Assembly (NCBI GenBank): GCA_965648915.1
Contig: CBFGIV010000007.1
Span: forward strand, 132 to 64,131
Source: a candidate division WOR-3 bacterium
Lineage (GTDB): Bacteria; Hydrothermota; Tepidihabitantia; SM23-42; CAYGYG01
DNA length: 64,000 nucleotides
Direction: 5' to 3'
This document shows, in pieces, positions 1 to 36,463 of this stretch. Each line of letters starts with the position of its first letter. Position 1 is the first letter of the stretch. The notes beneath the pieces were generated by a model. It made no database searches and was not told where the DNA came from. It saw nothing but the letters and a program-made list of their open reading frames with translations. The translations under genes were made by a program, and so were the position numbers.

Positions 1-390
1 AAGGAGACGACCTGCTATCTCTGTCTGACCAATTTTGAGATTAATCAAGAGAATTTTCACTATTTGGCCAATAAAGGAGGACGTTTAAGATGGAAGACTG
101 AGAATGAAGGCTTTAATATGCAGAAAAACGGGGGATATAACCTGGAGCACGCCTATAGCTACAACTCTGTAGCTATGAAGAACTTTTATCTTTTGATGCA
201 GATTGCCCATATCCTCAATCAGTTGATTGAGAAAGGCAGCCTGCTCACTGACACAATCAAGAAGTCTCTGGGCAGTATCCGAAACATTGCCAAAAGGCTG
301 TTAGAAGATTTAAGAACCAGCCTCTTTGACACCAATGAAATCGCTACTGCCCTGGCCAAGCGGTTTCAAATCCGCTTTGATACTTCCTGA
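1..390 (+). mobile_element. IS transposase (DDE, ISNCY-like), C-terminal part; cut by window edge
   Basis: Frame is open from base 1 (KETTCYLCLTNFEINQENFHYLANKGGRLRWKTENEGFNMQKNGGYNLEHAYS). The RWKxENExFNxxKNxGYxLEH motif is typical of these transposases. Confidence 0.8.
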
Positions 391-25954: not shown

Positions 25955-26726
25955 ATCTCAATCCTTGTTTTAATGGAACCTGCTTTCAAACTTATCCATT
26001 TTATCCATATCACTTATTATATCCATTTGTTTCAATCCTTGTTTTAATGGAACCTGCTTTCAAACCTTTTTTTGCTCAATCCAGAGACAATATATCAAAA
26101 TATGGTTTCAATCCTTGTTTTAATGGAACCTGCTTTCAAACAATATCTACCCTTCTTTTTTCGATTTAATGAATAAGTTTCAATCCTTGTTTTAATGGAA
26201 CCTGCTTTCAAACATGAAAAGGCAATAATCTTTTTGGCAAATATAATAAAGTTTCAATCCTTGTTTTAATGGAACCTGCTTTCAAACAAATTAAAATGAA
26301 GATAAAATGTAGAATTTGCGGGTTTCAATCCTTGTTTTAATGGAACCTGCTTTCAAACGGGTAGGCAGAGTTTATATCATAGAAATATATATTTTGTTTC
26401 AATCCTTGTTTTAATGGAACCTGCTTTCAAACTCCATTTTAACCTCTTTGTCAATAATTATGATGTATCGTTTCAATCCTTGTTTTAATGGAACCTGCTT
26501 TCAAACTTTGTATGTCCGATTATTCAGATTTCGATGGTACGTTTCAATCCTTGTTTTAATGGAACCTGCTTTCAAACTTTTTTGCTCAATCCAGCGACAA
26601 TATATCAAAATATGGTTTCAATCCTTGTTTTAATGGAACCTGCTTTCAAACTGGATATGGGGTGGAATGACAATAGTGCCAAGAATTATGTTTCAATCCT
26701 TGTTTTAATGGAACCTGCTTTCAAAC
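25955..26726 (-). CRISPR. CRISPR array, 11 repeats (37 nt) and 10 spacers (34-39 nt)
   Basis: Repeat GTTTGAAAGCAGGTTCCATTAAAACAAGGATTGAAAC on the minus strand. Plus-strand starts: 25955 (degenerate terminal), 26029, 26105, 26177, 26251, 26322, 26396, 26470, 26541, 26615, 26690. Confidence 0.98.
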
Positions 26727-26925: not shown

Positions 26926-27525
26926 TCACACACAAATATTCCGGTAACAACAATCAATACACCGATTGCGATATGAAGTTCGTTTTGGAAAATAACCCAT
27001 TAAAATCACCTTAAAAATCTCATCAATCACTTTTAAAGTATATTCAAAATCGGTGGGCTTGTAAAGTATCTCTTTCAAAGTTGCCCCCCCGCGCACATAA
27101 CATATATAACCTCTATAAACTGGTCTATTATAGATCTCTTTTATCAACATCGCATATAGCACAGACTGATATTTATGAGTTCGAAAAAGGTAATCATTAT
27201 ATTCAGTGTATTTATAATCCAATGGTGCCATAGAACCATCTTCAAGTGTGAGCACCTCGTCAACCACACCTCGCACTCTTATCTTTGGCGATGCAAGATA
27301 TACGCTCAACTCTTTTTTCACACACCCAATCTTTTTACGAAGATATTCTTTATTCTCTTTTTCTTTTCGGTCATGTAACTGTCTGCCCTTTATTACTTTG
27401 TATCTCAACTCCTCGTGCTGGGGAATTTTTAAACAATTCATAAAATATGTAAAACGAGGGCAGAATAAATGCTCAATCACCTCTGAAGGCGTTATCATTG
27501 GAGTGCTTTCAGAATCCAACTCCAT
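26926..27525 (-). CDS. cas4: CRISPR-associated exonuclease Cas4
   Basis: FCPR, RGVVD, DYK RecB motifs; C-terminal CxxCxxxxxC. Alternative start ATG27498. Confidence 0.93.
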   Translation of the reverse strand: MELDSESTPMITPSEVIEHLFCPRFTYFMNCLKIPQHEELRYKVIKGRQLHDRKEKENKEYLRKKIGCVKKELSVYLASPKIRVRGVVDEVLTLEDGSMAPLDYKYTEYNDYLFRTHKYQSVLYAMLIKEIYNRPVYRGYICYVRGGATLKEILYKPTDFEYTLKVIDEIFKVILMGYFPKRTSYRNRCIDCCYRNICV

Positions 27526-27546
27526 AACTCTCTAACTCCCCAACTC

Positions 27547-27879
<333 letters not shown>

Positions 27880-28275
27880 TCATATCTTAGAATAAGTTTG
27901 CCAGTTATTCATAAGAGAATAAAGCATAGCGTTAACTCTATCATATTTATCATCCAATCTTTTATAAGTACTTTCGTCCATGTATTTACAATCAAGTGCG
28001 AAATCCAACCAACCTCTCGTCTCTTCGCTTGAACCCAGAGCATCATTGAGATGTCGGATGAATATTTGTTCGTATTTTCTCTTAGCAAATCCTTCTCGTA
28101 CATTAATAGGAACCGACCTTGATGATCGTCTAATTTGGTCAATTAGCGAGTATTTTTCTTCAGGAGGAAACAATTTTGATATTTCAAATATTTCCATTGC
28201 CAGTTCATAAGATAATTGATACACTCTCAAATCCTTAATCGACCTAACAGATCGCCTCATTCTATCCTCTGTCAT
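27880..28275 (-). CDS. four helix bundle protein inserted between cas1 and cas2
   Basis: DLRVYQ, FPPEEKYSLIDQIRRSSRSV..NVREGF, GSSEET. Confidence 0.9.
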   Translation of the reverse strand: MTEDRMRRSVRSIKDLRVYQLSYELAMEIFEISKLFPPEEKYSLIDQIRRSSRSVPINVREGFAKRKYEQIFIRHLNDALGSSEETRGWLDFALDCKYMDESTYKRLDDKYDRVNAMLYSLMNNWQTYSKI

Positions 28276-28288
28276 CTGTCCTCTGTCT

Positions 28289-29260
28289 TCAGTCCTCGAT
28301 CAATCTGTTCGCTATGGCATGGCATTCAAACTGAATAATATCCGTCCTTTTAATATTTCTGCCGCAATACCGGATTGATTCGTTCATAAATGCAGTAAAA
28401 TTTTCAATCAGCATTGCCTTGCCTTCTTTATTTAAACTATAACCGTTTTCCAGTTTGTCAAAATGCTCCTGTTTAACCTTTCTTCCAGCAAAGAGATTTA
28501 CCACGGTCTCATCAGCCCAGATGCGAAAATTTTCTATTATATCAAAAACCAGAGATTTTTTATTATAATTGTCGGTATGAATAATGCCAACATAAGGATC
28601 AAGCCCGGCAATGATACAGGCCTTTTCCACTTTTGAATACAAAATTCCGTATGCGTAATTCAAAAGTGCGTTAAATTCATCCTTAGCTGGATTTCTGCTT
28701 CGGCCATCAAATCTATATCTATCTGGCATTAAAAAACTCAAGCATTCAAAATAGACCCTTCCCCCACTACCTTCAATCCCCATAATCGTGCCCCGTTTTT
28801 CTTCAATGGTGCCGGAAAGATTATCAAGTGATTCTCGGCAATTCTCTAATCTTTCAATATAAGCAGTAATTTCAGCAGACTTCTGGGTGCGTGTGGTACG
28901 AAGTCTCTTTAAGAATTCAATCTGATTTTCAAATTTCCTTATCACCCAGGAAAGGGCAAGTTTTAGTCCTTCCTCATTTTCGGCGATCTCAATCTGCCTT
29001 CTTCTTATCAGTGTTGTGCTGCCAATCCGGCTATGCCAGACCTGTCCATAAGGCTCTCCAAACTCATCAAGAAAGATAATATCAATATTATTCTCCATTG
29101 CCATCTTTATCGCATCGGTCGTAATATATGCAGCCGTGGTAATCAAAATTGAAGAGACCTTTTTGACAGAAATTTCAAAAACCTGGTCATCCCGTTTAAC
29201 CTTAAAACAATCACCTTCCTTGCAAAGATAAGAGCCATAACTATTTATGACTAACTGCAT
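28289..29260 (-). CDS. cas1: CRISPR-associated endonuclease Cas1
   Basis: MGIEG, NALLNYAYG, GLDPYVGIIH, LVFDIIENFR. Confidence 0.96.
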   Translation of the reverse strand: MQLVINSYGSYLCKEGDCFKVKRDDQVFEISVKKVSSILITTAAYITTDAIKMAMENNIDIIFLDEFGEPYGQVWHSRIGSTTLIRRRQIEIAENEEGLKLALSWVIRKFENQIEFLKRLRTTRTQKSAEITAYIERLENCRESLDNLSGTIEEKRGTIMGIEGSGGRVYFECLSFLMPDRYRFDGRSRNPAKDEFNALLNYAYGILYSKVEKACIIAGLDPYVGIIHTDNYNKKSLVFDIIENFRIWADETVVNLFAGRKVKQEHFDKLENGYSLNKEGKAMLIENFTAFMNESIRYCGRNIKRTDIIQFECHAIANRLIED

Positions 29261-29305: not shown

Positions 29306-29932
29306 TTAGTCCTGAAGGTGTTTTTCAAATTCTCTTAAATTAGCCATAAAAAACTTTTTTATATTATCCCACTGCCATTCTTTGCCTTTTATAACGATAA
29401 TTGGAGACGGCTCATCCTCAGCGTCTTCAAAAAAAATCATACTCTTAAGAACATGATACATATTGATATCAGACGAACCAAATCTTTTTTTGAAAGCCAG
29501 ACACGCCTCTTCTATCGACAACTTCAGTTGTATGGCTGCATACAAGTCATAAAAATCCTTTTTTGTTCCTCGTTGAGAAATCGCCTTGAATTTCTCCGCC
29601 ACGATATCCCGCCAATCAGCAAGTTCTATTTTGCGCCAGTTAATTACTGGATAAACAAGCGGTTGATTATAAAAGAGAAATGATAACTTGACTTTATTTA
29701 ATTCACAATGAATTGTTCCTTCTCTCACCAGCAGGGTTTTATCGGGCTGGATAGTTTTGAGAAGGAATTCAGTGTTGAACATTTTTGATGAAAAGAAATC
29801 TAAATCCGCTGATTTCCTGTGTCCCAACTGAAGTGCCAGTCCTGTGCCACCCGCCAGATAAAAATCATCGAGGTTGGCGGCTAATTTATTGATTATTTTA
29901 AGTGCGTTCTCTGGTAATACTTCTTCAAACAT
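29306..29932 (-). CDS. AbiEii/AbiGii-type nucleotidyltransferase toxin (type IV TA)
   Basis: FYLAGGTGLALQLGHRKSADLDFF, EKFKAI.QRG.KKDFYDLY. Confidence 0.88.
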   Translation of the reverse strand: MFEEVLPENALKIINKLAANLDDFYLAGGTGLALQLGHRKSADLDFFSSKMFNTEFLLKTIQPDKTLLVREGTIHCELNKVKLSFLFYNQPLVYPVINWRKIELADWRDIVAEKFKAISQRGTKKDFYDLYAAIQLKLSIEEACLAFKKRFGSSDINMYHVLKSMIFFEDAEDEPSPIIVIKGKEWQWDNIKKFFMANLREFEKHLQD

Positions 29933-30201
29933 GCAATCTCCTCAAATGGAATTCCAAAGTAAACCGCCCAGAACTTACCAGTCTGTGGTAATAATCCACG
30001 CTTCTTTTTGATAACTTCAATAATTTTTTCAGGAGGATACATTTCCCTCAATCTCTTAATATCATTCCCGTCTCCAAAGTCAAGTACTCGGGCAATTACA
30101 TAGTGTGCATTCTTTACACTGTCTAACTTCTGTGCATCCCAAAATAAAATTGGATTAAATATTTTCTTTGGGTTATTACCTTTGTGGTGTTTTACTTTCA
30201 T
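29893..30201 (-). CDS. DUF6922-like small protein, putative antitoxin partner
   Basis: LFWD...D...A.YVIARVLDFG; overlaps the toxin gene; has its own promoter. Confidence 0.75.
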   Translation of the reverse strand: MKVKHHKGNNPKKIFNPILFWDAQKLDSVKNAHYVIARVLDFGDGNDIKRLREMYPPEKIIEVIKKKRGLLPQTGKFWAVYFGIPFEEIACLKKYYQRTHLK

Positions 30202-30265: not shown

Positions 30266-30949
30266 CTATTTTTTTTGACTCCCCAACTCCTCAACTCTCT
30301 TTACCGTCCCGAATCCCCTTGAAACCGATTTGCCAAGCCCCCAGTATTCAGGGATTTCAAAATTCACGGAAAAATTCCCCAGAAACCCAAGCATGGGAGT
30401 GCCTTTGAGGGAGGTGAGGATTTCTTTCATCTTGCCGATGTTCGCCTTAATCGGCTCAAGCACTGTATAGCCAAGACTCTTTGACATTGAAATAATGTTG
30501 CCGATGAGAATCTTTTCAAGAAGTTCTTTTCTTTTCTGCCATGTGCCAAGCTTCTGGTACTGTTCATAGTTCTTCTCATTCAGGGCGAGCCAAGGGGTGA
30601 GGAAGGAGTAGGAGTTATTTATATCGGTTGTTCCAAAATAATCAGTTCTCAGTATAACAGCTTTCTCTTTTATTTGATATTCAGAGCGACCAATTTTTAA
30701 ATAATCAATATCTTCATGAATTTTTTGAAGAATATCTGCACCTTCGTTAATTCCAAGAACAAAAGGTTTCCCATCGAATATTTTGTATTGTATCAGTGGT
30801 GCTTTATAAAGAAGTTTGTTGTCAGTTAAGTGCTGGTGAATAAGCGTATATTCTCCAAATTTATCTGCAAAAAATCCTCTGAGTTTATCAGCCGTTCCTT
30901 TCACAGATTCATCACAGGTAAAATGGAAAAATAAGGTTTTAACTCTCAC
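30266..30949 (-). CDS. cas6: CRISPR-associated endoribonuclease Cas6 (Cas6b-like)
   Basis: KLRGFF, YKAPLIQYK, SFLTPWLALN, LIGNIISM, G-rich loop GLGKSVSRGFG. Confidence 0.9.
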   Translation of the reverse strand: MRVKTLFFHFTCDESVKGTADKLRGFFADKFGEYTLIHQHLTDNKLLYKAPLIQYKIFDGKPFVLGINEGADILQKIHEDIDYLKIGRSEYQIKEKAVILRTDYFGTTDINNSYSFLTPWLALNEKNYEQYQKLGTWQKRKELLEKILIGNIISMSKSLGYTVLEPIKANIGKMKEILTSLKGTPMLGFLGNFSVNFEIPEYWGLGKSVSRGFGTVKRVEELGSQKK

Positions 30950-31752
30950 TTTTTCTTACTCTTCCTTTTCTTACCTATTGCTTTACCTTTCTCTTCTTCT
31001 GCCAGCGGTTTTGCCAAAACATATCCTATCTCATCTATCTTAAAAACTTTTTCATTAGATATCCTGACTTTAAGGTATGACGGGTTTAATATTTTATTTT
31101 TTTCCCGGATAGGAACCATATAACTTATTAATGGAAAATTATTATCCTGCTTCTTACATCTTTCATGCATTAAGTAAACCTGTCCATTGCCATCTTCTAT
31201 TTTTGTATCCTTTGTAAAAGGGATAGGATATTCTGTTTGGATGACATCGTCTTTTATATCATCAGATACATCCCTGCTCATCACCTCACTATCCAGGGAA
31301 ATAGGTGATTCACTATCTCCACAGGTTAGAGGAGAGGCTTTAAGTGCCTCTACGAGAGTCGAAATAGGGATATTATTTGAGAGCATATCACTTTTAAAGA
31401 TTGCCGCTATCTGTAATTTATTGGAATAGGCATATTGTCTTCCAAGGGCATTAGTAAATTTAGGAAGTTTATTACCAATCTTATCTTCCCATTTGACAAT
31501 GGCAGAAGTTGTATAGCTTTTAATAACACAAGGACTTAAAAGTCTTGAGCCAGCCCACAGTAAATTATTTTCAATCATGTCAAGATATTCTAAAGGATGT
31601 TTGTTATTTTTATATCGTTGTAAAGCATTTGCAAGCATCCCTATAATAGCAGAAGGTGGCAATACAGGATATGTTAGGGCAGACTGCCAAGTAAAGGGGA
31701 TTCTAATTGAATAGAGGGAATTTAGTCTTATGTTAAAGATTAATACCTTCAT
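30946..31752 (-). CDS. cas5: type I-A CRISPR-associated Cas5 (Cas5a-like)
   Basis: YSIRIPFTWQSALTYPVLPPSAIIGMLANAL RAMP start; GDSES. Confidence 0.85.
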   Translation of the reverse strand: MKVLIFNIRLNSLYSIRIPFTWQSALTYPVLPPSAIIGMLANALQRYKNNKHPLEYLDMIENNLLWAGSRLLSPCVIKSYTTSAIVKWEDKIGNKLPKFTNALGRQYAYSNKLQIAAIFKSDMLSNNIPISTLVEALKASPLTCGDSESPISLDSEVMSRDVSDDIKDDVIQTEYPIPFTKDTKIEDGNGQVYLMHERCKKQDNNFPLISYMVPIREKNKILNPSYLKVRISNEKVFKIDEIGYVLAKPLAEEEKGKAIGKKRKSKKK

Positions 31753-31755
31753 TGT

Positions 31756-32691
31756 CTAACTAACTTTGGTTAAAAGTTCAGCGAATATTTCGCTAATCGT
31801 GTTTTTCTTATCTACACCTGTAGGTTTTGCATCTCCCCAGTAGAGAAGCTTCGTATTCTCTGGCATAAGCCCAACTGTTTTAGGAATATAATCCGAATAC
31901 ATCGGTGATACAGGAAAAGGCAGAGGTCCGGTTTCAGAATATGCAACAAGAAGTTCTATTAGTTTCATATGAGGAATTGCGTGAGATAAAGATGCACCCA
32001 TTTGCCCGGAGATTATATACCGATACGATTCAATAGCAACTTTTATTCTTTCTTTGCGTCCGTTAGCATCAATCGCATAAGGATTATTACTTCCAAGATT
32101 TAATTCAACAAGCCCAATTCTATCCACATCAAGGGCAGAGACAAAGGCATAAATGCCAGAGGCATAGGACTTGTTAAAGGGCATCATAACTGTAGGATCA
32201 GTTGAGACTCTGTTATGAATCACCTGTTTAGAAGTTGTATCGTATCCTAATGCTGGCATTAACCACGAGAACATTACCCTTGAAATTCTGCGAGCAGATG
32301 TCCCTCTTTCCTGCTCACCTTCAGCCTCTCTTGCAATCAGATATCCATGGATATCGCAGACAACACACGATGTAATAGCTTCTCTTTCTTGTTTTGCGAC
32401 CTGTGTTAAATTGTTATTCCTCATTTCACTTGGTCTGATAGGCTCTCCTGCTTTACACCCAGCACATAAAGGGACTGAAGAGAATGAACCATTTACTATT
32501 AAATGTTTCATCCCCTCATAATGCCAATGTTTAAGCATTCTCCCTGATACTGCCGGTGCTTCTTGTCTGACGCCATTTTCATCAAGAAATTCCATAATTC
32601 TTATATCTGTCACATTACCCGCAACAGCCTCGTTATTAAGGTCATGGACATTTAATTGAGTCTTTACTGCAAATGTTACAAACTTAAGCAT
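31756..32691 (-). CDS. cas7: type I-A Cas7 (Csa2/DevR family)
   Basis: LNVHDLN..GN, PAVSGRMLKHWH, CDIHGYL, RRISRV, IHNRV; SD AGGAGG before ATG32691. Confidence 0.88.
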   Translation of the reverse strand: MLKFVTFAVKTQLNVHDLNNEAVAGNVTDIRIMEFLDENGVRQEAPAVSGRMLKHWHYEGMKHLIVNGSFSSVPLCAGCKAGEPIRPSEMRNNNLTQVAKQEREAITSCVVCDIHGYLIAREAEGEQERGTSARRISRVMFSWLMPALGYDTTSKQVIHNRVSTDPTVMMPFNKSYASGIYAFVSALDVDRIGLVELNLGSNNPYAIDANGRKERIKVAIESYRYIISGQMGASLSHAIPHMKLIELLVAYSETGPLPFPVSPMYSDYIPKTVGLMPENTKLLYWGDAKPTGVDKKNTISEIFAELLTKVS

Positions 32692-33034
32692 TTTGCACCT
32701 CCTCTGTAAATGTAGTATTCTCCTCTTCACCCTTTGAAGGAAATGAAAAGGCAAGAATAACCAATGCTGTCTTCGTTTTATCGAAATCAGCATTAGCTAA
32801 TCTGAAGACTTCTTTCATTTCTTCATCAGTGGGCAGATGAATTTTTTCTCTTTGTTCAAGCCTTAATCTTCCTTCTCTTAACATCTTTGCTATTGTGTCT
32901 TCAAAGTCCTTTGATTCTTTCCTTGCATTCCTGATATCATCGGCATAACCATATTTTCTCTCTCTGATAAAATATCTCAATGTCCTTGCCAAACTTCCTA
33001 AAGCAGGGTTTTCAATAATTTCTTGTTTTATCAT
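32684..33034 (-). CDS. cas11: putative internally translated small subunit Cas11 (Csa5-like), 116 aa, in frame within cas8
   Basis: AGGAGG at 33045-33040, 5 nt, in-frame ATG33034; helical MIKQEIIENPALGSLARTLRYFIRERKYGYADDIRNA.. Confidence 0.65.
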   Translation of the reverse strand: MIKQEIIENPALGSLARTLRYFIRERKYGYADDIRNARKESKDFEDTIAKMLREGRLRLEQREKIHLPTDEEMKEVFRLANADFDKTKTALVILAFSFPSKGEEENTTFTEEVQNA

Positions 33035-34123
33035 AGCAACCTCCTGTAAAAGATATTTTGATGTTTCAGGATATAGAAGGTTTGTAGAATCTTTTGTTGA
33101 TGTCTCCTGGACATAAAGACGGGCAAATTTGGGTAAGGAATTAGTTGTATTATAATAGATTATGTTATTTAATTCTTGTAACGCTGTAAATGCTTCTCTC
33201 CTTAACATGGTATCCACCAATGCAATGTTATAAGAATTTGCCCTTAGAAAATCCAAATATTTGCTTACATGTATCAAGAAAAGTCCATCTACATGATACC
33301 CTTGTTGACGACTTAACACTGCAATGAACAAATCAAAGCCGTCCAGAATGTCAGAAGATGAAGGGATTTTAGATAAAAATGCAAGAGGGATAAGAGTTTG
33401 TGGTAATTCTGGAAGAAAAGCTTTTCTAATTTGATGTTGTAAGGAAAAAATTTCCTGAAGTCTACTCCCTTTGATACCCTGTTTAGGAATTGGAATCGTA
33501 ACAATTTCTTGTATAACTTTATACTGTTTATTCATAATGTTAAAAATAAAGGAACTGTACCACATGCCAATTAAAGATAGAAGTCCACAAACTTTACAAA
33601 TTCTTTTTGGATTTGAAGGTCTGCCGATGTAATATTTATCCTTGTCCTTCTTTTGTTCAAAATCAAGCTTATCTCTTGAATGATGATAGCTTGATTCAGC
33701 AGCGAGACCTAAAACTGCGCCGACTACCTCTGGGTCAGAATGACCGCAAACAGGTTCATCTTTTGTATTATTCCAGTAAAACCTTCCAGTTTGTTGAAAC
33801 ACTCCCAAACTAAAACTTTCATCTTCTTTTACTGTTATATTTCCAACAAAACCTCCTCTTTTACCGGATTTCTTAATTCCAGGCGTAGTAATAGGAATAT
33901 ATTCGGAGGCAAGCAATCGTTTACAAAGCATATTAAAGGTTCTATCAAGTTTGAAAAACTCATCTTTAGCAATATCAATTGAGACTGTATAAAAACCACC
34001 ATCAGCATGTACTGCAACCTTTTCCATTCCAAGTGCCTCAACCCCTACCCTTGCCAAGCCATAGGCAATCTTAGCTTCTAAATCTGGAAATCCAGTTGCT
34101 GGGGTATAAAGGGTTATGCTCAT
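32684..34123 (-). CDS. cas8: large subunit Cas8a-like with C-terminal Csa5/Cas11-like domain
   Basis: YTP.TGF..L...IAYGLARV N-terminus, C.H and CxxC zinc-finger-like motifs, position between cas3'' and cas7. Confidence 0.75.
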   Translation of the reverse strand: MSITLYTPATGFPDLEAKIAYGLARVGVEALGMEKVAVHADGGFYTVSIDIAKDEFFKLDRTFNMLCKRLLASEYIPITTPGIKKSGKRGGFVGNITVKEDESFSLGVFQQTGRFYWNNTKDEPVCGHSDPEVVGAVLGLAAESSYHHSRDKLDFEQKKDKDKYYIGRPSNPKRICKVCGLLSLIGMWYSSFIFNIMNKQYKVIQEIVTIPIPKQGIKGSRLQEIFSLQHQIRKAFLPELPQTLIPLAFLSKIPSSSDILDGFDLFIAVLSRQQGYHVDGLFLIHVSKYLDFLRANSYNIALVDTMLRREAFTALQELNNIIYYNTTNSLPKFARLYVQETSTKDSTNLLYPETSKYLLQEVAMIKQEIIENPALGSLARTLRYFIRERKYGYADDIRNARKESKDFEDTIAKMLREGRLRLEQREKIHLPTDEEMKEVFRLANADFDKTKTALVILAFSFPSKGEEENTTFTEEVQNA

Positions 34124-34851
34124 CGTTTCACCCTTTCCCTGACTGCATCAACATAATTTTTTATCTCCTCTACCATCAACCATCCACCATAGTAATCATC
34201 CGCGTCTTTCTTTTGATATTCTTTTCTCTCTGTCGCAGCAGAGATATCACAAAGTTTCAGTACATGATGAGCAAGCGAAGCATGGATTCTGCTTTGATGT
34301 TGCTCAAATATTCCACATCCTCTTGCCCATATCCTGAGCCCTCTTGCCATTTCTTTTAGGGATGATACATTTAGATTATATGCTTCTTTAGGGAAATAAT
34401 CTTCTGTTAAGTTCTTTATCTCATCATGCCATACTATATTACCGTTATTATCAACTATGTCATCCAATATTGCCTGAACATCAGGCTTTTCAATGTTATC
34501 TCCAAGAAGCCCTCTATCTGTGTGATGAATTGCGACAGCAAAACTTAATGGTTCTTTAATGCCATCAGGTAAGGTTTTCCAGAGATAAGCAGCTCCGAGC
34601 GTTGAATGAGATGGCAATCTGGCACCAGTGCCAACTCTTTCCTGCCACCTTTTTGTAAGCTTGCCCAGATCATGAAATAAAATCATCTTAAGAAGAAAAT
34701 CTACTAAACTTCCCTGTTTGATTGAAATATCGAGGACCCTTGAAATTGTAGAATCGAACATCGGGAAAACGAGATCGAACTTATCTTTACACCTTGAAAT
34801 GTGGTCTAAATATTTCTCATTTGGAGCACTATATAATGAAGCTGCTGGCAT
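34120..34851 (-). CDS. cas3'': stand-alone Cas3'' HD nuclease
   Basis: YLDH, LFHDLGK, HST, IHH, LKLCDISA HD motifs. Confidence 0.88.
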   Translation of the reverse strand: MPAASLYSAPNEKYLDHISRCKDKFDLVFPMFDSTISRVLDISIKQGSLVDFLLKMILFHDLGKLTKRWQERVGTGARLPSHSTLGAAYLWKTLPDGIKEPLSFAVAIHHTDRGLLGDNIEKPDVQAILDDIVDNNGNIVWHDEIKNLTEDYFPKEAYNLNVSSLKEMARGLRIWARGCGIFEQHQSRIHASLAHHVLKLCDISAATERKEYQKKDADDYYGGWLMVEEIKNYVDAVRERVKR

Positions 34852-36463
34852 CTGGTATTATTCCTTTAAGTTTGTCATAATTACTTTGTTCAAGCATATA
34901 GTATCTAAAGGGTGATACATTTTTAACCTCAGTAAAATCCCATTCGCCCTTTTCTTGATCAAAATCCAATCTATACTTTAAAATTTTGCCTTCTAATAAC
35001 TTCCAACCGACACCAAAATCAACATTTATAGAATTATCTCGTATATTTGTTTTCCGAATGGCATCTTTAATCTTATCCTCTTTTTTATGACCTTCGCCAA
35101 TTGAAAGGTCAACAACTACGAGTGTTATTGGCTTGCCGTCTCTTAATTGTATATTCGTTGGTCTTTCATCGGCATACAAAACACATTCATAAAGATCAAT
35201 TAATGTATCCCTTGCCTCATAGTCGTTTGCCTGATAATCAAGTGTTTCATCAACAAAGGAGCAGACCTCTTTAAAGTTTTTGATGTTGAATTTCTTATTC
35301 TTTTGCAACCATTCAAGTGTTTTTGTTAAATGCTCCTTTTCATAAGGCAAATGCCCTCTGTTTTCTTCTTCAATAGGAAAAACGATCATTTCTCCACTTT
35401 CGCCTTCATATCTTGCGCATCTCCCTGCCCTTTGTATTAATGAATCTGCTGGCGCAAGCTCTGTAAGCAAAAGGTCTGATGAAAAATCAATACCTGCTTC
35501 AAGGACTTGAGTTGAAACCACAACTCCAACGCCCTTTGGTATTACCATCTTTCCTTCTTCTTTATGAGGAATTAATGAGATCGCTTTGTCTTCATGATTT
35601 CTTCTATCTGCTTTAGTAAACCGGGAATGCAACAAAACAATCTGGTCATCGCTAAGTTCAAGCCGCGATTTAATATCTTCATAAATCTTTTGTGCCCTCT
35701 TGACTTGATTAACAACGATAAGAGTTTTTTGCTTGCCTAACCTGCTCAGAAGTTCTTCTAAAATGTTGACATCACCGTTTGAATATAATGGGTTATCTTC
35801 AAGAGTGATTTTTAGATTTGCCTTATTGGAGATATTTCCAACCAATTTTTGATTGTCTTGAAGCAAAATTTCCTCAAATAAACTCTTTTCTAATATTTTT
35901 GGCATCGTCGCAGTCATTAAGATAAAAGGGATATTACTTTTCTGCAGTATCTCCATTAATGCACGCATAATTGAGAAGGTAAACCTATCCCTGTACATAT
36001 GAGCTTCATCAAAAACAATGATAGATGAAGCAATAGACCCTGCAGGCATATCTATATGGTGCCCAACTTGCCGACTTGTCCTTGCAAAACCATAAAGAAA
36101 CTGATCAAGTGTAGTTACTACAATATCACCAATAAAAAAAGGCGAGTTAGAAATATCACCATGTTGAATCTCAACTGAAATATATTTGGAAATCCTGTTT
36201 ATATATTTTTTAATCCTCTCTGCAATACTATTTACCAATACTCTCATTGGGAGAACATAAATTAGTCTCGGCGCAATCTCAAATTTATTTTCAACAAATT
36301 GCTCGAGGAATGGCGCAATCACCCCCTCAGTCTTGCCTGAGCCGGTAGGAGCACGGATCAATAAAGGCATATGCATACCTCTAATACAATCCCACATCTT
36401 AACCTGATGCTCAAACGGATTGGCAATGTAAAAAAAACTCTTATAAAACTCTTTTATATCCAT
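34829..36463 (-). CDS. cas3: Cas3' helicase (no HD domain)
   Basis: APTGSGKT, DEAH, MTAT, HSRF, STQVLEAGID, QRAGRCAR. Confidence 0.93.
   Translation of the reverse strand: MDIKEFYKSFFYIANPFEHQVKMWDCIRGMHMPLLIRAPTGSGKTEGVIAPFLEQFVENKFEIAPRLIYVLPMRVLVNSIAERIKKYINRISKYISVEIQHGDISNSPFFIGDIVVTTLDQFLYGFARTSRQVGHHIDMPAGSIASSIIVFDEAHMYRDRFTFSIMRALMEILQKSNIPFILMTATMPKILEKSLFEEILLQDNQKLVGNISNKANLKITLEDNPLYSNGDVNILEELLSRLGKQKTLIVVNQVKRAQKIYEDIKSRLELSDDQIVLLHSRFTKADRRNHEDKAISLIPHKEEGKMVIPKGVGVVVSTQVLEAGIDFSSDLLLTELAPADSLIQRAGRCARYEGESGEMIVFPIEEENRGHLPYEKEHLTKTLEWLQKNKKFNIKNFKEVCSFVDETLDYQANDYEARDTLIDLYECVLYADERPTNIQLRDGKPITLVVVDLSIGEGHKKEDKIKDAIRKTNIRDNSINVDFGVGWKLLEGKILKYRLDFDQEKGEWDFTEVKNVSPFRYYMLEQSNYDKLKGIIPDASSFII

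What the first reader, a model, noticed from the sequence alone, without database searches (positions are those of the whole stretch)
32684..33045. Hidden Cas11: type I-A cas8a fused to a Csa5-like domain with an internal RBS and start
Canonical I-A loci encode the small subunit Csa5/Cas11a as a separate gene, and none is present here. The last 116 codons of cas8 are helical and Csa5-like (LARTLRYFIRERKYGYADDIRNA). They start at an in-frame ATG (33034) preceded by a perfect AGGAGG 5 nt upstream (33045-33040). Internal translation of Cas11 from the large subunit is established for I-B, I-C and I-D. An I-A-type Cascade (Csa2-like Cas7, Cas5a, split Cas3) using it is not something I know to be described, and could link the fused and split architectures.
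Basis: partly seen in the sequence, partly recalled or inferred. Interest (0 to 1): 0.85.

Follow-up and report, generated by a model that had tools for sequence, protein, structure and literature searches.

The report
Hidden Cas11 inside bacterial cas8a
The large-subunit gene of this CRISPR system ends in a true Csa5/Cas11a small-subunit domain preceded by a strongly conserved internal ribosome-binding site and start codon, so one gene very probably makes two proteins, a trick already known from related CRISPR subtypes.

Summary
AGGAGG lies at 33045-33040 and an in-frame ATG at 33034-33032 (Met364 of a 479-aa Cas8), opening a 116-codon frame that runs to the cas8 stop.

- **Domain identity.** The C-terminal domain is a true Cas11a/Csa5. 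It hits TIGR01878 at E 6e-30, above the curated cut-off. Its structural model matches only solved I-A Cas11a/Csa5 structures. The N-terminal body matches Pyrococcus furiosus Cas8a. No other Cas11 is encoded anywhere in the window.
- **Conservation of the start site.** All 95 homologous loci have ATG at this position, and 93 have GGAGG exactly 5 nt upstream. Among 74 non-redundant genes the Lys codon is AAG 52/52, the Arg codon AGG 17/17 and the Glu codon GAG 73/73. The gene-wide G-ending frequency is about 0.3. The only other such column encodes the Shine-Dalgarno (SD) of the downstream cas7.
- **Strength.** The internal SD is much stronger than cas8's own (median duplex -12.7 vs -5.6 kcal/mol).
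- **Split relative.** One relative with the same gene order has cas8a2 (357 aa) and csa5 (111 aa) as separate overlapping genes, broken at the same boundary.

Internal translation of free Cas11a is therefore strongly inferred but not demonstrated. The mechanism is already established for I-B, I-C and I-D. The fusion family is widespread in thermophilic bacteria and is named "Csa5" in databases. I rate it a new member of a known kind, of moderate interest.

The parts
32684..34123 (-). cas8a-cas11a (csa5) fusion gene, 479 codons plus stop
   Evidence: ORF. PADLOC Cas8a (I-A large subunit) profile on residues 2-343 at E 7.7e-119, and Cas11 profiles on residues 346-471. 117 full-length homologues are all fused in frame.
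33035..34123 (-). Cas8a body, residues 1-363
   Evidence: The only significant Foldseek hit of the full-length model is 7tr6_C, P. furiosus type I-A Cas8a (E 4.4e-7, prob 1.00). Weak Csa4/Cas8a2 HMM hits. Colinear with the separate 357-aa Cas8a2 of L104 (E 1e-28).
33039..33045 (-). Internal Shine-Dalgarno AGGAGGT, formed by codons Gln360-Glu361-Val362
   Evidence: Sequence. GGAGG at a 5-nt spacing in 93/95 homologous loci. Fixed synonymous sites: AAG 52/52, AGG 17/17, GAG 73/73. Median SD:anti-SD duplex -12.7 kcal/mol.
33032..33034 (-). Internal in-frame ATG (Met364), proposed start of free Cas11a
   Evidence: Met is invariant in 117/117 proteins while other Met columns vary. ATG in 95/95 loci. 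Confirmed stand-alone Csa5 genes (P0152 in L105, P0159 in L104) and further short Csa5-like proteins start within about 4 residues of this column.
32687..33034 (-). Predicted Cas11a/Csa5 product, 116 aa, 13.6 kDa
   Evidence: TIGR01878 E 6.7e-26 for this fragment alone. AF2 pLDDT 88.6 with a six-helix bundle. Foldseek 7tr6_D TM 0.63/0.68, rmsd 2.9 A, plus 9cro/9crq/3zc4. HMM hits to PDB Cas11a and Csa5.
32698..32703 (-). SD (AGGAGG) of cas7, embedded in the last codons of cas8 (EEVQNA tail). Serves as an internal positive control.
   Evidence: AGGAGG, 6 nt, then ATG 32691. Column Glu475 is the only other conserved Glu/Lys column with a near-fixed G-ending codon (0.96).
31756..32691 (-). cas7 (Csa2/DevR family), 311 aa counted from ATG 32691
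   Evidence: PF01905 E 3.6e-51. TIGR02583 (I-A Cas7/Csa2) E 7e-39, below its curated cut-off.
30946..31752 (-). cas5
   Evidence: TIGR02593 and PF09704. Weak Cas5a profiles.
30266..30949 (-). cas6 (Cas6b type)
   Evidence: PF17955 and PF17262.
34120..34851 (-). cas3'' (HD nuclease). Its stop overlaps the cas8 start (ATGA).
   Evidence: TIGR01596. Sequence.
34829..36463 (-). cas3' (helicase)
   Evidence: TIGR01587 E 2.6e-69.
26926..29260 (-). Adaptation module: cas1 (28289-29260), cas2 (27547-27837) and cas4 (26926-27525), with a 23S-rRNA-IVP gene between cas1 and cas2
25958..26726 (.). CRISPR array
   Evidence: Tandem repeat finder, period of about 73-74 nt, about 9.5 copies.

Best explanation
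The gene at 32684-34123 (minus strand) is a fusion of a type I-A large subunit (Cas8a, residues 1-363) with a true type I-A small subunit (Cas11a/Csa5, residues 364-479). It most likely yields two proteins from one mRNA.

- **Full-length product.** A 54.6-kDa Cas8a-Cas11a is initiated at a weak start codon that overlaps the cas3'' stop and is probably translationally coupled to it.
- **Short product.** A 13.6-kDa free Cas11a is initiated at Met364 from a strong internal Shine-Dalgarno (AGGAGGT, 5 nt, ATG) written into codons 360-362.

By analogy with solved I-A, I-B, I-C and I-D Cascades, several free Cas11a copies would form the minor ('belly') filament along the Cas7 backbone. The Cas11a domain that stays attached to Cas8a would then be the first unit of that filament.

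Shown here: domain identities, absence of another cas11, nucleotide-level selection on the SD and ATG, the relative SD strengths, and the existence of a split relative broken at the same boundary. Inferred: that ribosomes initiate there, the stoichiometry, and the role in the complex.
For: - **Domain identity.** TIGR01878 Csa5 hits residues 348-464 at E 6e-30 (103.7 bits, cut-off 53.35). PADLOC gives Cas8a(I-A) on residues 2-343 at E 7.7e-119 and Cas11 on 346-471 at E 6e-66. A profile of the C-terminal domain hits Pfu Cas11a (7r21/7tr6, E 6.5e-7), Sso Csa5 (3zc4, E 6.7e-6) and Csa5-2 (9cro). In the full-length AF2 model (pLDDT 82.7) the body matches 7tr6_C (Cas8a) and the tail matches 7tr6_D (Cas11a). 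For the 116-aa model (pLDDT 88.6) the top 11 PDB hits are all I-A Cas11a/Csa5.
- **No other cas11.** A six-frame HMM scan of the whole window finds only this copy.
- **Start codon.** Met364 is invariant in 117/117 homologues. Most other Met columns drift to Leu/Ile/Thr/Ala; only M414 comes close (113/117). ATG is present in 95/95 loci.
- **SD.** GGAGG lies exactly 5 nt upstream in 93/95 loci. In 74 non-redundant genes codon -3 is GAG in 73/73 Glu, and codon -4 is AAG in 52/52 Lys and AGG in 17/17 Arg. Background frequencies are GAG 0.34, AAG 0.29 and AGG 0.24. Other conserved Glu/Lys columns range from 0.04 to 0.66. The amino acid at -4 varies (K, R, E, Q, L), yet its third base is G in 95/95.
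- **Positive control.** The only comparable column is Glu475, which forms the SD of the downstream cas7.
- **Strength.** Median SD:anti-SD duplex energy is -12.7 kcal/mol for the internal site, -5.6 for cas8's own start and -11.8 for cas7. Background positions have a median of -1.9, and only 1.1% reach -9 or lower.
- **Distant fused relatives (28-48% identity).** They keep GAGGT plus a start codon, but the Met shifts by one codon (L100, L110) or becomes GTG (L108). This is the behaviour of an initiation site, not of a structural Met.
- **Split relative L104.** It reads cas3'-cas3''-cas8a2 (357 aa, ending ...NLLYPDTADYLIRWCYGS) followed by csa5 (111 aa, with its own AGGTGGTG SD), overlapping by 11 nt. 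It is colinear with residues 3-360 and 368-461 of the window protein.
- **Gene callers.** When the upstream part of cas8 is missing, they pick exactly this start.
- **Stoichiometry.** I-A Cascade contains five Cas11 per complex (stated in PMC11899642, citing Hu et al. 2022), so a fused gene needs an extra source of Cas11.
Against: - No protein-level or ribosome-profiling evidence exists for this family.
- The predicted local RNA fold pairs the SD weakly with upstream sequence. It is no more stable than shuffled controls (z -0.48), so it is neutral to slightly unfavourable.
- One distant relative (L109) has GGAGGT but no canonical in-frame start. Two closer ones (L076, L080) have degraded SDs.
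- Curated Csa5/Cas11 profiles begin at residues 346-348, so a product starting at Met364 lacks a helix (residues 352-362) that some models count as part of the domain. Pfu Cas11a, and confirmed stand-alone Csa5 genes such as P0152 and P0159, lack it too.
- The anti-SD sequence was assumed canonical, because no 16S rRNA was examined.
- A predicted internal cas11 site in Thermotoga I-B did not work in E. coli (PMC13199841), so prediction is not proof.
Confidence: 0.85

Rival explanations
1. The Csa5 domain works only as a covalently attached C-terminal domain of Cas8a, as in I-F and I-G, and no separate protein is made. The conserved SD-like sequence would then serve another RNA-level role, such as a programmed ribosomal pause between the two domains for co-translational folding.
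For: The full-length frame is intact in all 117 homologues, and no product has been detected. The SD lies exactly at the domain junction, where a pause would be plausible.
Against: A pause site needs neither an invariant ATG at a fixed 5-nt spacing (95/95) nor a start codon that moves together with the SD in distant relatives. Confirmed stand-alone Csa5 genes (P0152/L105, P0159/L104) start at this column, and the split relative L104 has its csa5 start at this boundary. I-A Cascades need several Cas11 copies (PMC11899642). McBride et al. found no conserved internal start in cas8f or cas8u2, which do use the attached domain only. This shows what that situation looks like, and it is unlike this case.
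Confidence: 0.08
2. Free Cas11a is produced, but by proteolytic cleavage of Cas8a-Cas11a at the linker rather than by internal initiation.
For: C-terminal Cas8b fragments were at first interpreted as proteolysis products (cited and in PMC11899642).
Against: Proteolysis does not explain selection on synonymous sites that build an SD. Those earlier cases were later reassigned to internal translation.
Confidence: 0.03
3. The AGGAGG/ATG is a by-product of protein-level conservation of the peptide K/R-E-V-A-M and has no RNA-level function.
For: The surrounding peptide is highly conserved, with L359, E361 and M364 invariant.
Against: Protein constraint cannot fix synonymous third positions (GAG 73/73, AAG 52/52, AGG 17/17 against a background of about 0.3). 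It also cannot keep the third base G while the residue at -4 varies among K, R, E, Q and L. Other invariant Glu/Lys columns show normal codon mixtures.
Confidence: 0.02

Closest known systems
Internally translated Cas11 of types I-B, I-C and I-D (McBride et al. 2020, bioRxiv 10.1101/2020.04.18.045682; Haloferax Cas11b, PMC11899642)
   Same: There is no separate cas11 gene. The C-terminal 110-150 aa of the large-subunit gene form a Cas11-like helical bundle. A conserved in-frame start with an upstream RBS sits at the domain boundary. The expected outcome is several free Cas11 copies plus one attached to the large subunit.
   Different: Here the embedded domain is recognisably a Csa5/Cas11a by sequence (E 6e-30). 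The large subunit is a Cas8a, Cas3 is split, and Cas7 is Csa2-like, so the effector is I-A-type. Reviews up to 2026 still say that I-A encodes cas11 separately (PMC13199841, PMC11899642). The SD is unusually strong and almost invariant. Nothing has been tested experimentally in this family.
Canonical archaeal type I-A Cascade with separate Cas11a/Csa5 (P. furiosus 7TR6; S. solfataricus Csa5 3ZC4; Thermoproteus tenax)
   Same: Cas8a and Cas11a are homologous by sequence profile and fold. Cas3' and Cas3'' are split, and Cas7 is of the Csa2 family.
   Different: In the archaeal systems csa5 is its own gene, often the first of the operon (L105: csa5-cas7-cas5-cas8a-cas3'-cas3''-cas6). Here it is fused in frame to cas8a. 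The gene order is cas3'-cas3''-cas8a::cas11a-cas7-cas5-cas6b, the host is bacterial, and Cas6 is of the Cas6b type.
Types I-F and I-G, where the small-subunit-like domain is only a C-terminal part of the large subunit
   Same: [quoted passage not shown]
   Different: Those families show no conserved internal initiation site, whereas this one does.
Split relative L104 (metagenomic contig SRR22580798_136353): cas3''-cas8a2-csa5 as overlapping separate genes
   Same: Same gene order and the same domain boundary. Its Cas8a2 ends at the equivalent of residue 360, and its Csa5 starts at the equivalent of residue 364 with its own SD.
   Different: The two genes are in different frames and overlap by 11 nt. 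Identity is only 26-33%. It is a single contig, so a sequencing frameshift cannot be fully excluded.

Membership tests
Cas11a / Csa5 (TIGR01878) small subunit | Sequence match to the curated family model above its trusted cut-off | tested here: met
   103.7 bits against a cut-off of 53.35, E 6e-30, profile positions 1-107 on residues 348-464. The 116-aa fragment alone scores 90.6 bits.
Cas11a / Csa5 (TIGR01878) small subunit | Small all-helical bundle superposable on solved Cas11a/Csa5 | tested here: met
   AF2 pLDDT 88.6. Foldseek 7tr6_D TM 0.63/0.68 at rmsd 2.9 A, with 9cro/9crq/9crp and 3zc4 at prob 0.98-1.00, and no other fold among the top 11 hits. HMM hits to the same PDB chains.
Cas11a / Csa5 (TIGR01878) small subunit | Encoded as a separate small gene in a I-A operon | tested here: not met
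   Fused in frame to cas8a here and in 117/117 close homologues. Separate in L104 and L105.
Cas11a / Csa5 (TIGR01878) small subunit | Multiple copies form the minor filament of Cascade | not testable with these tools
   Requires purification or a structure of the complex.
Internally translated 'hidden' Cas11 (as in I-B/I-C/I-D) | No stand-alone cas11 in the locus | tested here: met
   A six-frame HMM scan of the 64-kb window finds only the cas8 C-terminus.
Internally translated 'hidden' Cas11 (as in I-B/I-C/I-D) | Conserved in-frame start codon at the boundary of the Cas11-like domain | tested here: met
   Met364 in 117/117 proteins and ATG in 95/95 loci. A shifted Met or a GTG in distant relatives.
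Internally translated 'hidden' Cas11 (as in I-B/I-C/I-D) | Conserved functional RBS upstream of that start | tested here: met
   GGAGG at 5 nt in 93/95 loci, fixed synonymous sites, and a duplex energy of -12.7 kcal/mol against a background of -1.9. Conservation is shown. Activity is not.
Internally translated 'hidden' Cas11 (as in I-B/I-C/I-D) | A separate Cas11 polypeptide is detected and required for Cascade function | not testable with these tools
   Needs mass spectrometry, a reporter or genetics.
Type I-A CRISPR-Cas | Cas8a-family large subunit | tested here: met
   PADLOC 'Cas8a, CAS-I-A effector_LS' at E 7.7e-119 on residues 2-343. The only significant PDB fold hit is Pfu Cas8a, 7tr6_C.
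Type I-A CRISPR-Cas | Cas3 split into Cas3' helicase and Cas3'' HD nuclease | tested here: met
   Separate genes at 34829-36463 and 34120-34851.
Type I-A CRISPR-Cas | Cas7 of the Csa2 type and Cas5a | tested here: inconclusive
   Cas7 hits TIGR02583 (I-A Csa2) at 133.7 bits, below its 212.6 cut-off, while the DevR family is above cut-off. Cas5 hits generic Cas5 better than the Cas5a profiles.
Type I-A CRISPR-Cas | Separate cas11 (csa5) gene | tested here: not met
   Fused.
Type I-B CRISPR-Cas | Cas8b large subunit, single fused cas3, Cas6b | tested here: inconclusive
   A full-length 'Cas8b, CAS-I-B' profile matches residues 4-464, but only at E 1.8e-21, against 7.7e-119 for Cas8a. Cas6 is Cas6b-type. 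Cas3 is split, which is not typical of I-B. The locus is a I-A/I-B mosaic, and the effector core is I-A-like.

The most novel reading that the evidence does not exclude
This bacterial Cas8a::Csa5 lineage may be a caught-in-the-act intermediate for the origin of all 'hidden' Cas11 genes. Adjacent, overlapping cas8a2 and csa5 genes (as in L104) would have merged by a small frame change, and the ancestral csa5 RBS and start were kept as an internal initiation site. In that case I-A, the subtype that textbooks describe as having a separate cas11, spans both architectures. In addition, the autonomous Met364-to-stop unit appears to have been copied out of cas operons into non-cas contexts (L101/L102, L103, L111), of which L111 lies beside a tRNA. 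There it could act as a Cas11 decoy, that is, an anti-CRISPR working by subunit poisoning.
Probability: 0.25. Interest if true: 0.65.

Novelty: new member of a known kind. Interest (0 to 1): 0.45.

Why it matters
- **Scope of the mechanism.** It extends the one-gene, two-subunit strategy (internal translation of Cas11) to an effector that is I-A by content. Current literature treats I-A as always having a separate cas11.
- **Evolution.** It supplies a sequence-recognisable Cas11 (Csa5) inside a large-subunit gene, together with a split relative broken at the same point. This is direct evidence that such hidden genes arose by fusion with retention of the RBS.
- **Annotation.** Hundreds of 460-480-aa proteins are named simply 'Csa5' in public databases. 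They should be annotated as Cas8a plus an internal cas11a.
- **Heterologous use.** Reconstitution of these thermophilic, Cas3-integrated I-A systems for editing or diagnostics will probably need cas11a supplied as its own gene, as was found for I-B/C/D.

Tried and rejected
- **phmmer against PDB sequences.** The whole protein gave no hits. Only the profile search and the fold search were informative.
- **Short "stand-alone" proteins starting at Met364.** At first these looked like true split genes (P0127, P0133, P0145, P0150, P0161). P0133 is a gene-calling artefact caused by a run of N inside cas8 (L097). P0155 lies on a contig cut 26 nt upstream, with an open KEVLG frame (L100). I rejected both as evidence of a split. 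They show only that gene finders prefer this start.
- **Local RNA structure.** The region around the site is not significantly structured (z -0.48), so no accessibility argument can be made.
- **Sliding-window synonymous conservation.** The result is noisy. Window 358-362 ranks only third (ratio 1.98 against a median of 1.2), and 375-380 ranks first for no known reason. The per-column codon test is the decisive form of this analysis.
- **Viral-contig scans.** Scans with the window Cas11 and with orphan P0161 found nothing.
- **Neighbours of the orphan genes.** PHROGs and Pfam gave no useful hits.
- **Hu et al. 2022 (PMC9357151).** The paper is not held. Its content is cited only as reported by other papers.
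- **Literature searches.** I found no description of a I-A Cas8a-Csa5 fusion with an internal start. Makarova 2011 did note that only 'some' I-A systems have a separate small subunit.
Full report
**The locus.** All genes described here lie on the minus strand of the window and form one CRISPR-Cas operon.

| Gene | Coordinates | Note |
|---|---|---|
| cas3' helicase | 34829-36463 | |
| cas3'' HD nuclease | 34120-34851 | |
| cas8 | 32684-34123 | 479 aa |
| cas7 | 31756-32691 | true start is ATG 32691 |
| cas5 | 30946-31752 | |
| cas6 | 30266-30949 | Cas6b type |
| DUF6922/AbiEii pair | 29306-30201 | inserted between cas6 and cas1 |
| cas1 | 28289-29260 | |
| 23S-rRNA-IVP gene | 27880-28275 | between cas1 and cas2 |
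| cas2 | 27547-27837 | |
| cas4 | 26926-27525 | |
| CRISPR array | about 25958-26726 | |

**The observation.** On the minus strand the sequence reads TTTTAC-AGGAGG-TTGCT-ATG-ATA-AAA. AGGAGG occupies 33045-33040 and ATG occupies 33034-33032. The ATG is Met364 of the 479-aa ORF. Reading from it to the stop gives 116 residues (13.6 kDa).

Within the window this is the only in-frame internal ATG of any ORF of 200 aa or more that has a full AGGAGG upstream; 14,748 internal codons were scanned. The same AGGAGG(T) plus 4-8 nt plus start arrangement precedes about 13 real genes on that strand. The organism therefore uses this signal for ordinary genes.

**What the two halves are.**
- *C-terminal domain, by sequence.* NCBIfam TIGR01878 (type I-A Csa5) matches residues 348-464 at E 6e-30, 103.7 bits against a cut-off of 53.35.
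- *Both halves, by PADLOC.* The Cas profiles in PADLOC split the protein cleanly. A I-A Cas8a large-subunit profile covers residues 2-343 (E 7.7e-119). Cas11 profiles cover residues 346-471 (E 6e-66).
- *Full-length model.* An AF2 model (pLDDT 82.7) has one significant PDB match, 7tr6_C, the Cas8a of the P. furiosus I-A Cascade. Its tail matches 7tr6_D, the Cas11a of the same complex.
- *116-aa product modelled alone.* This model (pLDDT 88.6, a six-helix bundle) hits nothing but I-A small subunits in its top 11 matches. These are 9cro/9crq/9crp Csa5-2, 7tr6_D (TM 0.63/0.68, rmsd 2.9 A) and 3zc4 Sso Csa5.
- *Profile against PDB sequences.* A profile of the domain finds the same proteins (E 6.5e-7 and 6.7e-6).
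- *No second copy.* A six-frame HMM scan finds no second Cas11a anywhere in the 64 kb.

The description 'Cas8a fused to Csa5, with no separate csa5' is therefore correct.

**Is the internal start real? Comparative evidence.** The protein has hundreds of full-length relatives of 450-500 aa in thermophilic and anaerobic bacteria. Hosts include Thermodesulfovibrio, Thermodesulfobacterium, WOR-3, Hydrothermae, Aminicenantes and Kapaibacteria, plus a few MAGs labelled as archaea. Many of these proteins are named 'type I-A Csa5' as a whole.

Met364 is invariant in 117/117 of them, whereas most other Met columns drift to Leu/Ile/Thr/Ala and only M414 comes close (113/117).

I fetched DNA for 96 related loci. 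95 sequences, the window included, covered the site.
- All 95 have ATG, and 93 have GGAGG exactly 5 nt upstream.
- In 74 genes that are non-redundant at 90% identity, the codon at -3 is GAG in 73/73 Glu.
- The codon at -4 is AAG in 52/52 Lys and AGG in 17/17 Arg.
- Gene-wide frequencies are 0.34, 0.29 and 0.24 respectively.
- The 36 other conserved Glu/Lys columns (Glu475 aside) range from 0.04 to 0.66.
- The residue at -4 varies (K, R, E, Q, L), yet its third base is always G. That is selection on the RNA, not on the protein.

The only other column that behaves this way is Glu475 (0.96). It forms the Shine-Dalgarno of the downstream cas7 inside the conserved EEVQNA tail. This is a built-in positive control showing what a true SD embedded in this gene looks like.

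SD:anti-SD duplex energies were computed with an assumed canonical anti-SD.

| Site | Median duplex energy (kcal/mol) |
|---|---|
| Internal site | -12.7 |
| cas8's own start (overlaps the cas3'' stop, ATGA) | -5.6 |
| cas7 start | -11.8 |
| Other in-gene positions | -1.9 (1.1% at -9 or lower) |

A strong internal site combined with a weak, probably coupled cas8 start is what one expects if Cas11 must exceed Cas8 in amount. I-A Cascade carries five Cas11 (PMC11899642, citing Hu et al. 2022).

In more distant fused relatives (28-48% identity in the C-terminal domain) the GAGGT motif persists. The start shifts by one codon (L100, L110) or becomes GTG (L108). One relative (L109) has no canonical start.

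**Split and fused relatives.**
- *L104.* It carries cas3'-cas3''-cas8a2 (357 aa, PF09703)-csa5 (111 aa), followed by a truncated ORF at the contig end. This is the same order as in the window, but the two genes are separate and overlap by 11 nt. Its Cas8a2 aligns colinearly with residues 3-360 and ends at ...NLLYPDTADYLIR, equivalent to residues 348-360. Its csa5 starts after an AGGTGGTG SD and aligns with residues 368-461. Both architectures therefore exist with the same break point, which fits a fusion that kept the csa5 RBS. This is a single contig.
- *L105-L107.* These show the canonical archaeal order csa5-cas7-cas5-cas8a-cas3'-cas3''-cas6.
- *N-termini.* The confirmed stand-alone Csa5 genes (P0152 in L105, P0159 in L104), and further short Csa5-like proteins whose genomic context is orphan, truncated or unchecked, begin within about 4 residues of Met364 in the alignment, apart from P0160, which carries a 19-residue extension. 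Pfu Cas11a begins about 8 residues after it.
- *Artefacts.* Several very similar short proteins that start exactly at Met364 are gene-calling artefacts of gaps or contig ends (L097, L100). I do not count them as evidence.

**Mechanism.** The most likely mechanism (confidence 0.85) is that one mRNA gives two products. One is the full-length Cas8a-Cas11a. The other, made from the internal SD/ATG, is a larger amount of free Cas11a that builds the minor filament, nucleated by the attached copy. This is the mechanism shown for I-B, I-C and I-D (PMC11899642).

The shown steps are the domain identities, the absence of another cas11, nucleotide-level selection on the SD and ATG, the relative SD strengths, and the split relative. 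The inferred steps are initiation itself, the stoichiometry and the role in the complex.

The rivals fit the data poorly. They are: an attached-only domain with a pause site, proteolytic release, and pure protein constraint. The last is effectively refuted by the codon data.

**Comparison and novelty.** Internal translation of Cas11 is established for I-B/C/D, which are the systems 'lacking a separate cas11'. Papers up to 2026 state that I-A and I-E encode a distinct cas11 (PMC11899642; PMC13199841). My searches found no description of a Cas8a-Csa5 fusion with an internal start.

Three points limit the novelty.
- Makarova et al. 2011 already noted that only 'some' I-A systems have a separate small subunit, and that Cas8a1 has an extended C-terminus.
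- The family is abundant in databases.
- A related full-length profile is filed as I-B Cas8b.

The locus is itself a I-A/I-B mosaic. The I-A features are the Cas8a, the Csa5, the Csa2-like Cas7 and the split Cas3. The I-B features are the Cas6b and the fused small subunit. I therefore rate it a new member of a known kind. It is a solid, experimentally testable extension, useful for annotation and for the evolutionary story, but not a surprise in mechanism. Interest is 0.45.

**Side observations.** Three Csa5-like small ORFs lie outside any cas context.
- *P0161 (L101/L102) and P0145 (L103).* Both begin with the family-specific MLKPEILEN or MIRQEIIEN N-terminus, that is, exactly at the Met364 equivalent. 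They have partly degraded core motifs and sit among small unannotated genes.
- *P0162 (L111).* It lies 14 nt after a tRNA-Pro gene and has its own AAGGAGG.

These ORFs could be Cas11 decoys carried by mobile elements, but I found no viral-contig relatives.

Noticed in passing
L101 511-849, L102 486-824, L103 616-951, L111 122-415: Orphan Csa5/Cas11a-like small ORFs lie outside any cas operon. Two of them start exactly at the Met364 equivalent (MLKPEILEN..., MIRQEIIEN...), have partly degraded core motifs and sit among small unannotated genes. The third lies 14 nt downstream of a tRNA-Pro gene and has its own AAGGAGG. They may be Cas11 decoys (anti-CRISPR) carried by mobile elements. No relatives were found on viral contigs, and the neighbours gave no PHROG or Pfam hits.
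   Followed up: partly
window 32684-32703 (-): The conserved C-terminal tail of Cas8 (…EEVQNA*) is conserved because it encodes the SD (GAGGAGGTG) and the ATG of cas7. The cas7 start at 32691 overlaps the cas8 stop. The mechanical ORF list extends cas7 to 32793, which is probably wrong.
   Followed up: yes
window 29306-30201 (-): A DUF6922 (102 aa) plus AbiEii nucleotidyltransferase toxin (208 aa) pair is inserted between cas6 and cas1. This is a toxin-antitoxin-like module inside the CRISPR-Cas operon.
   Followed up: no
window 27880-28275 (-): A 23S rRNA-intervening-sequence protein gene (PF05635, weakly bAvd-like) sits between cas1 and cas2.
   Followed up: no
window 32986-33003 (-), codons 375-380 of cas8 (LGSLAR): This is the highest synonymous-site conservation of the whole gene in the sliding-window test (ratio 2.2 against a median of 1.2). 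It lies 11-16 codons downstream of the internal start. The cause is unknown. It may be a six-fold-codon artefact or an RNA feature of the initiation region.
   Followed up: no
Homologues P0005, P0008, P0035, P0051, P0082-P0084 etc.; PADLOC PDLC01215: Public annotation names the whole 450-500-aa Cas8a::Cas11a fusion 'type I-A CRISPR-associated protein Csa5'. The best-matching Cas11 profile in PADLOC is labelled CAS-III-B. Both labels are misleading.
   Followed up: partly
L097 5050-5143: A run of N (a scaffold gap) inside cas8 makes the gene caller emit a 115-aa 'protein' that starts at the internal SD/ATG. The same artefact probably underlies several short cluster representatives.
   Followed up: yes
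L109 3730-5133: A distant fused relative keeps GGAGGT at the junction but has no canonical in-frame start. An out-of-frame ATG follows the SD. This may be a loss of the internal start, use of ATT, or a different arrangement.
   Followed up: partly
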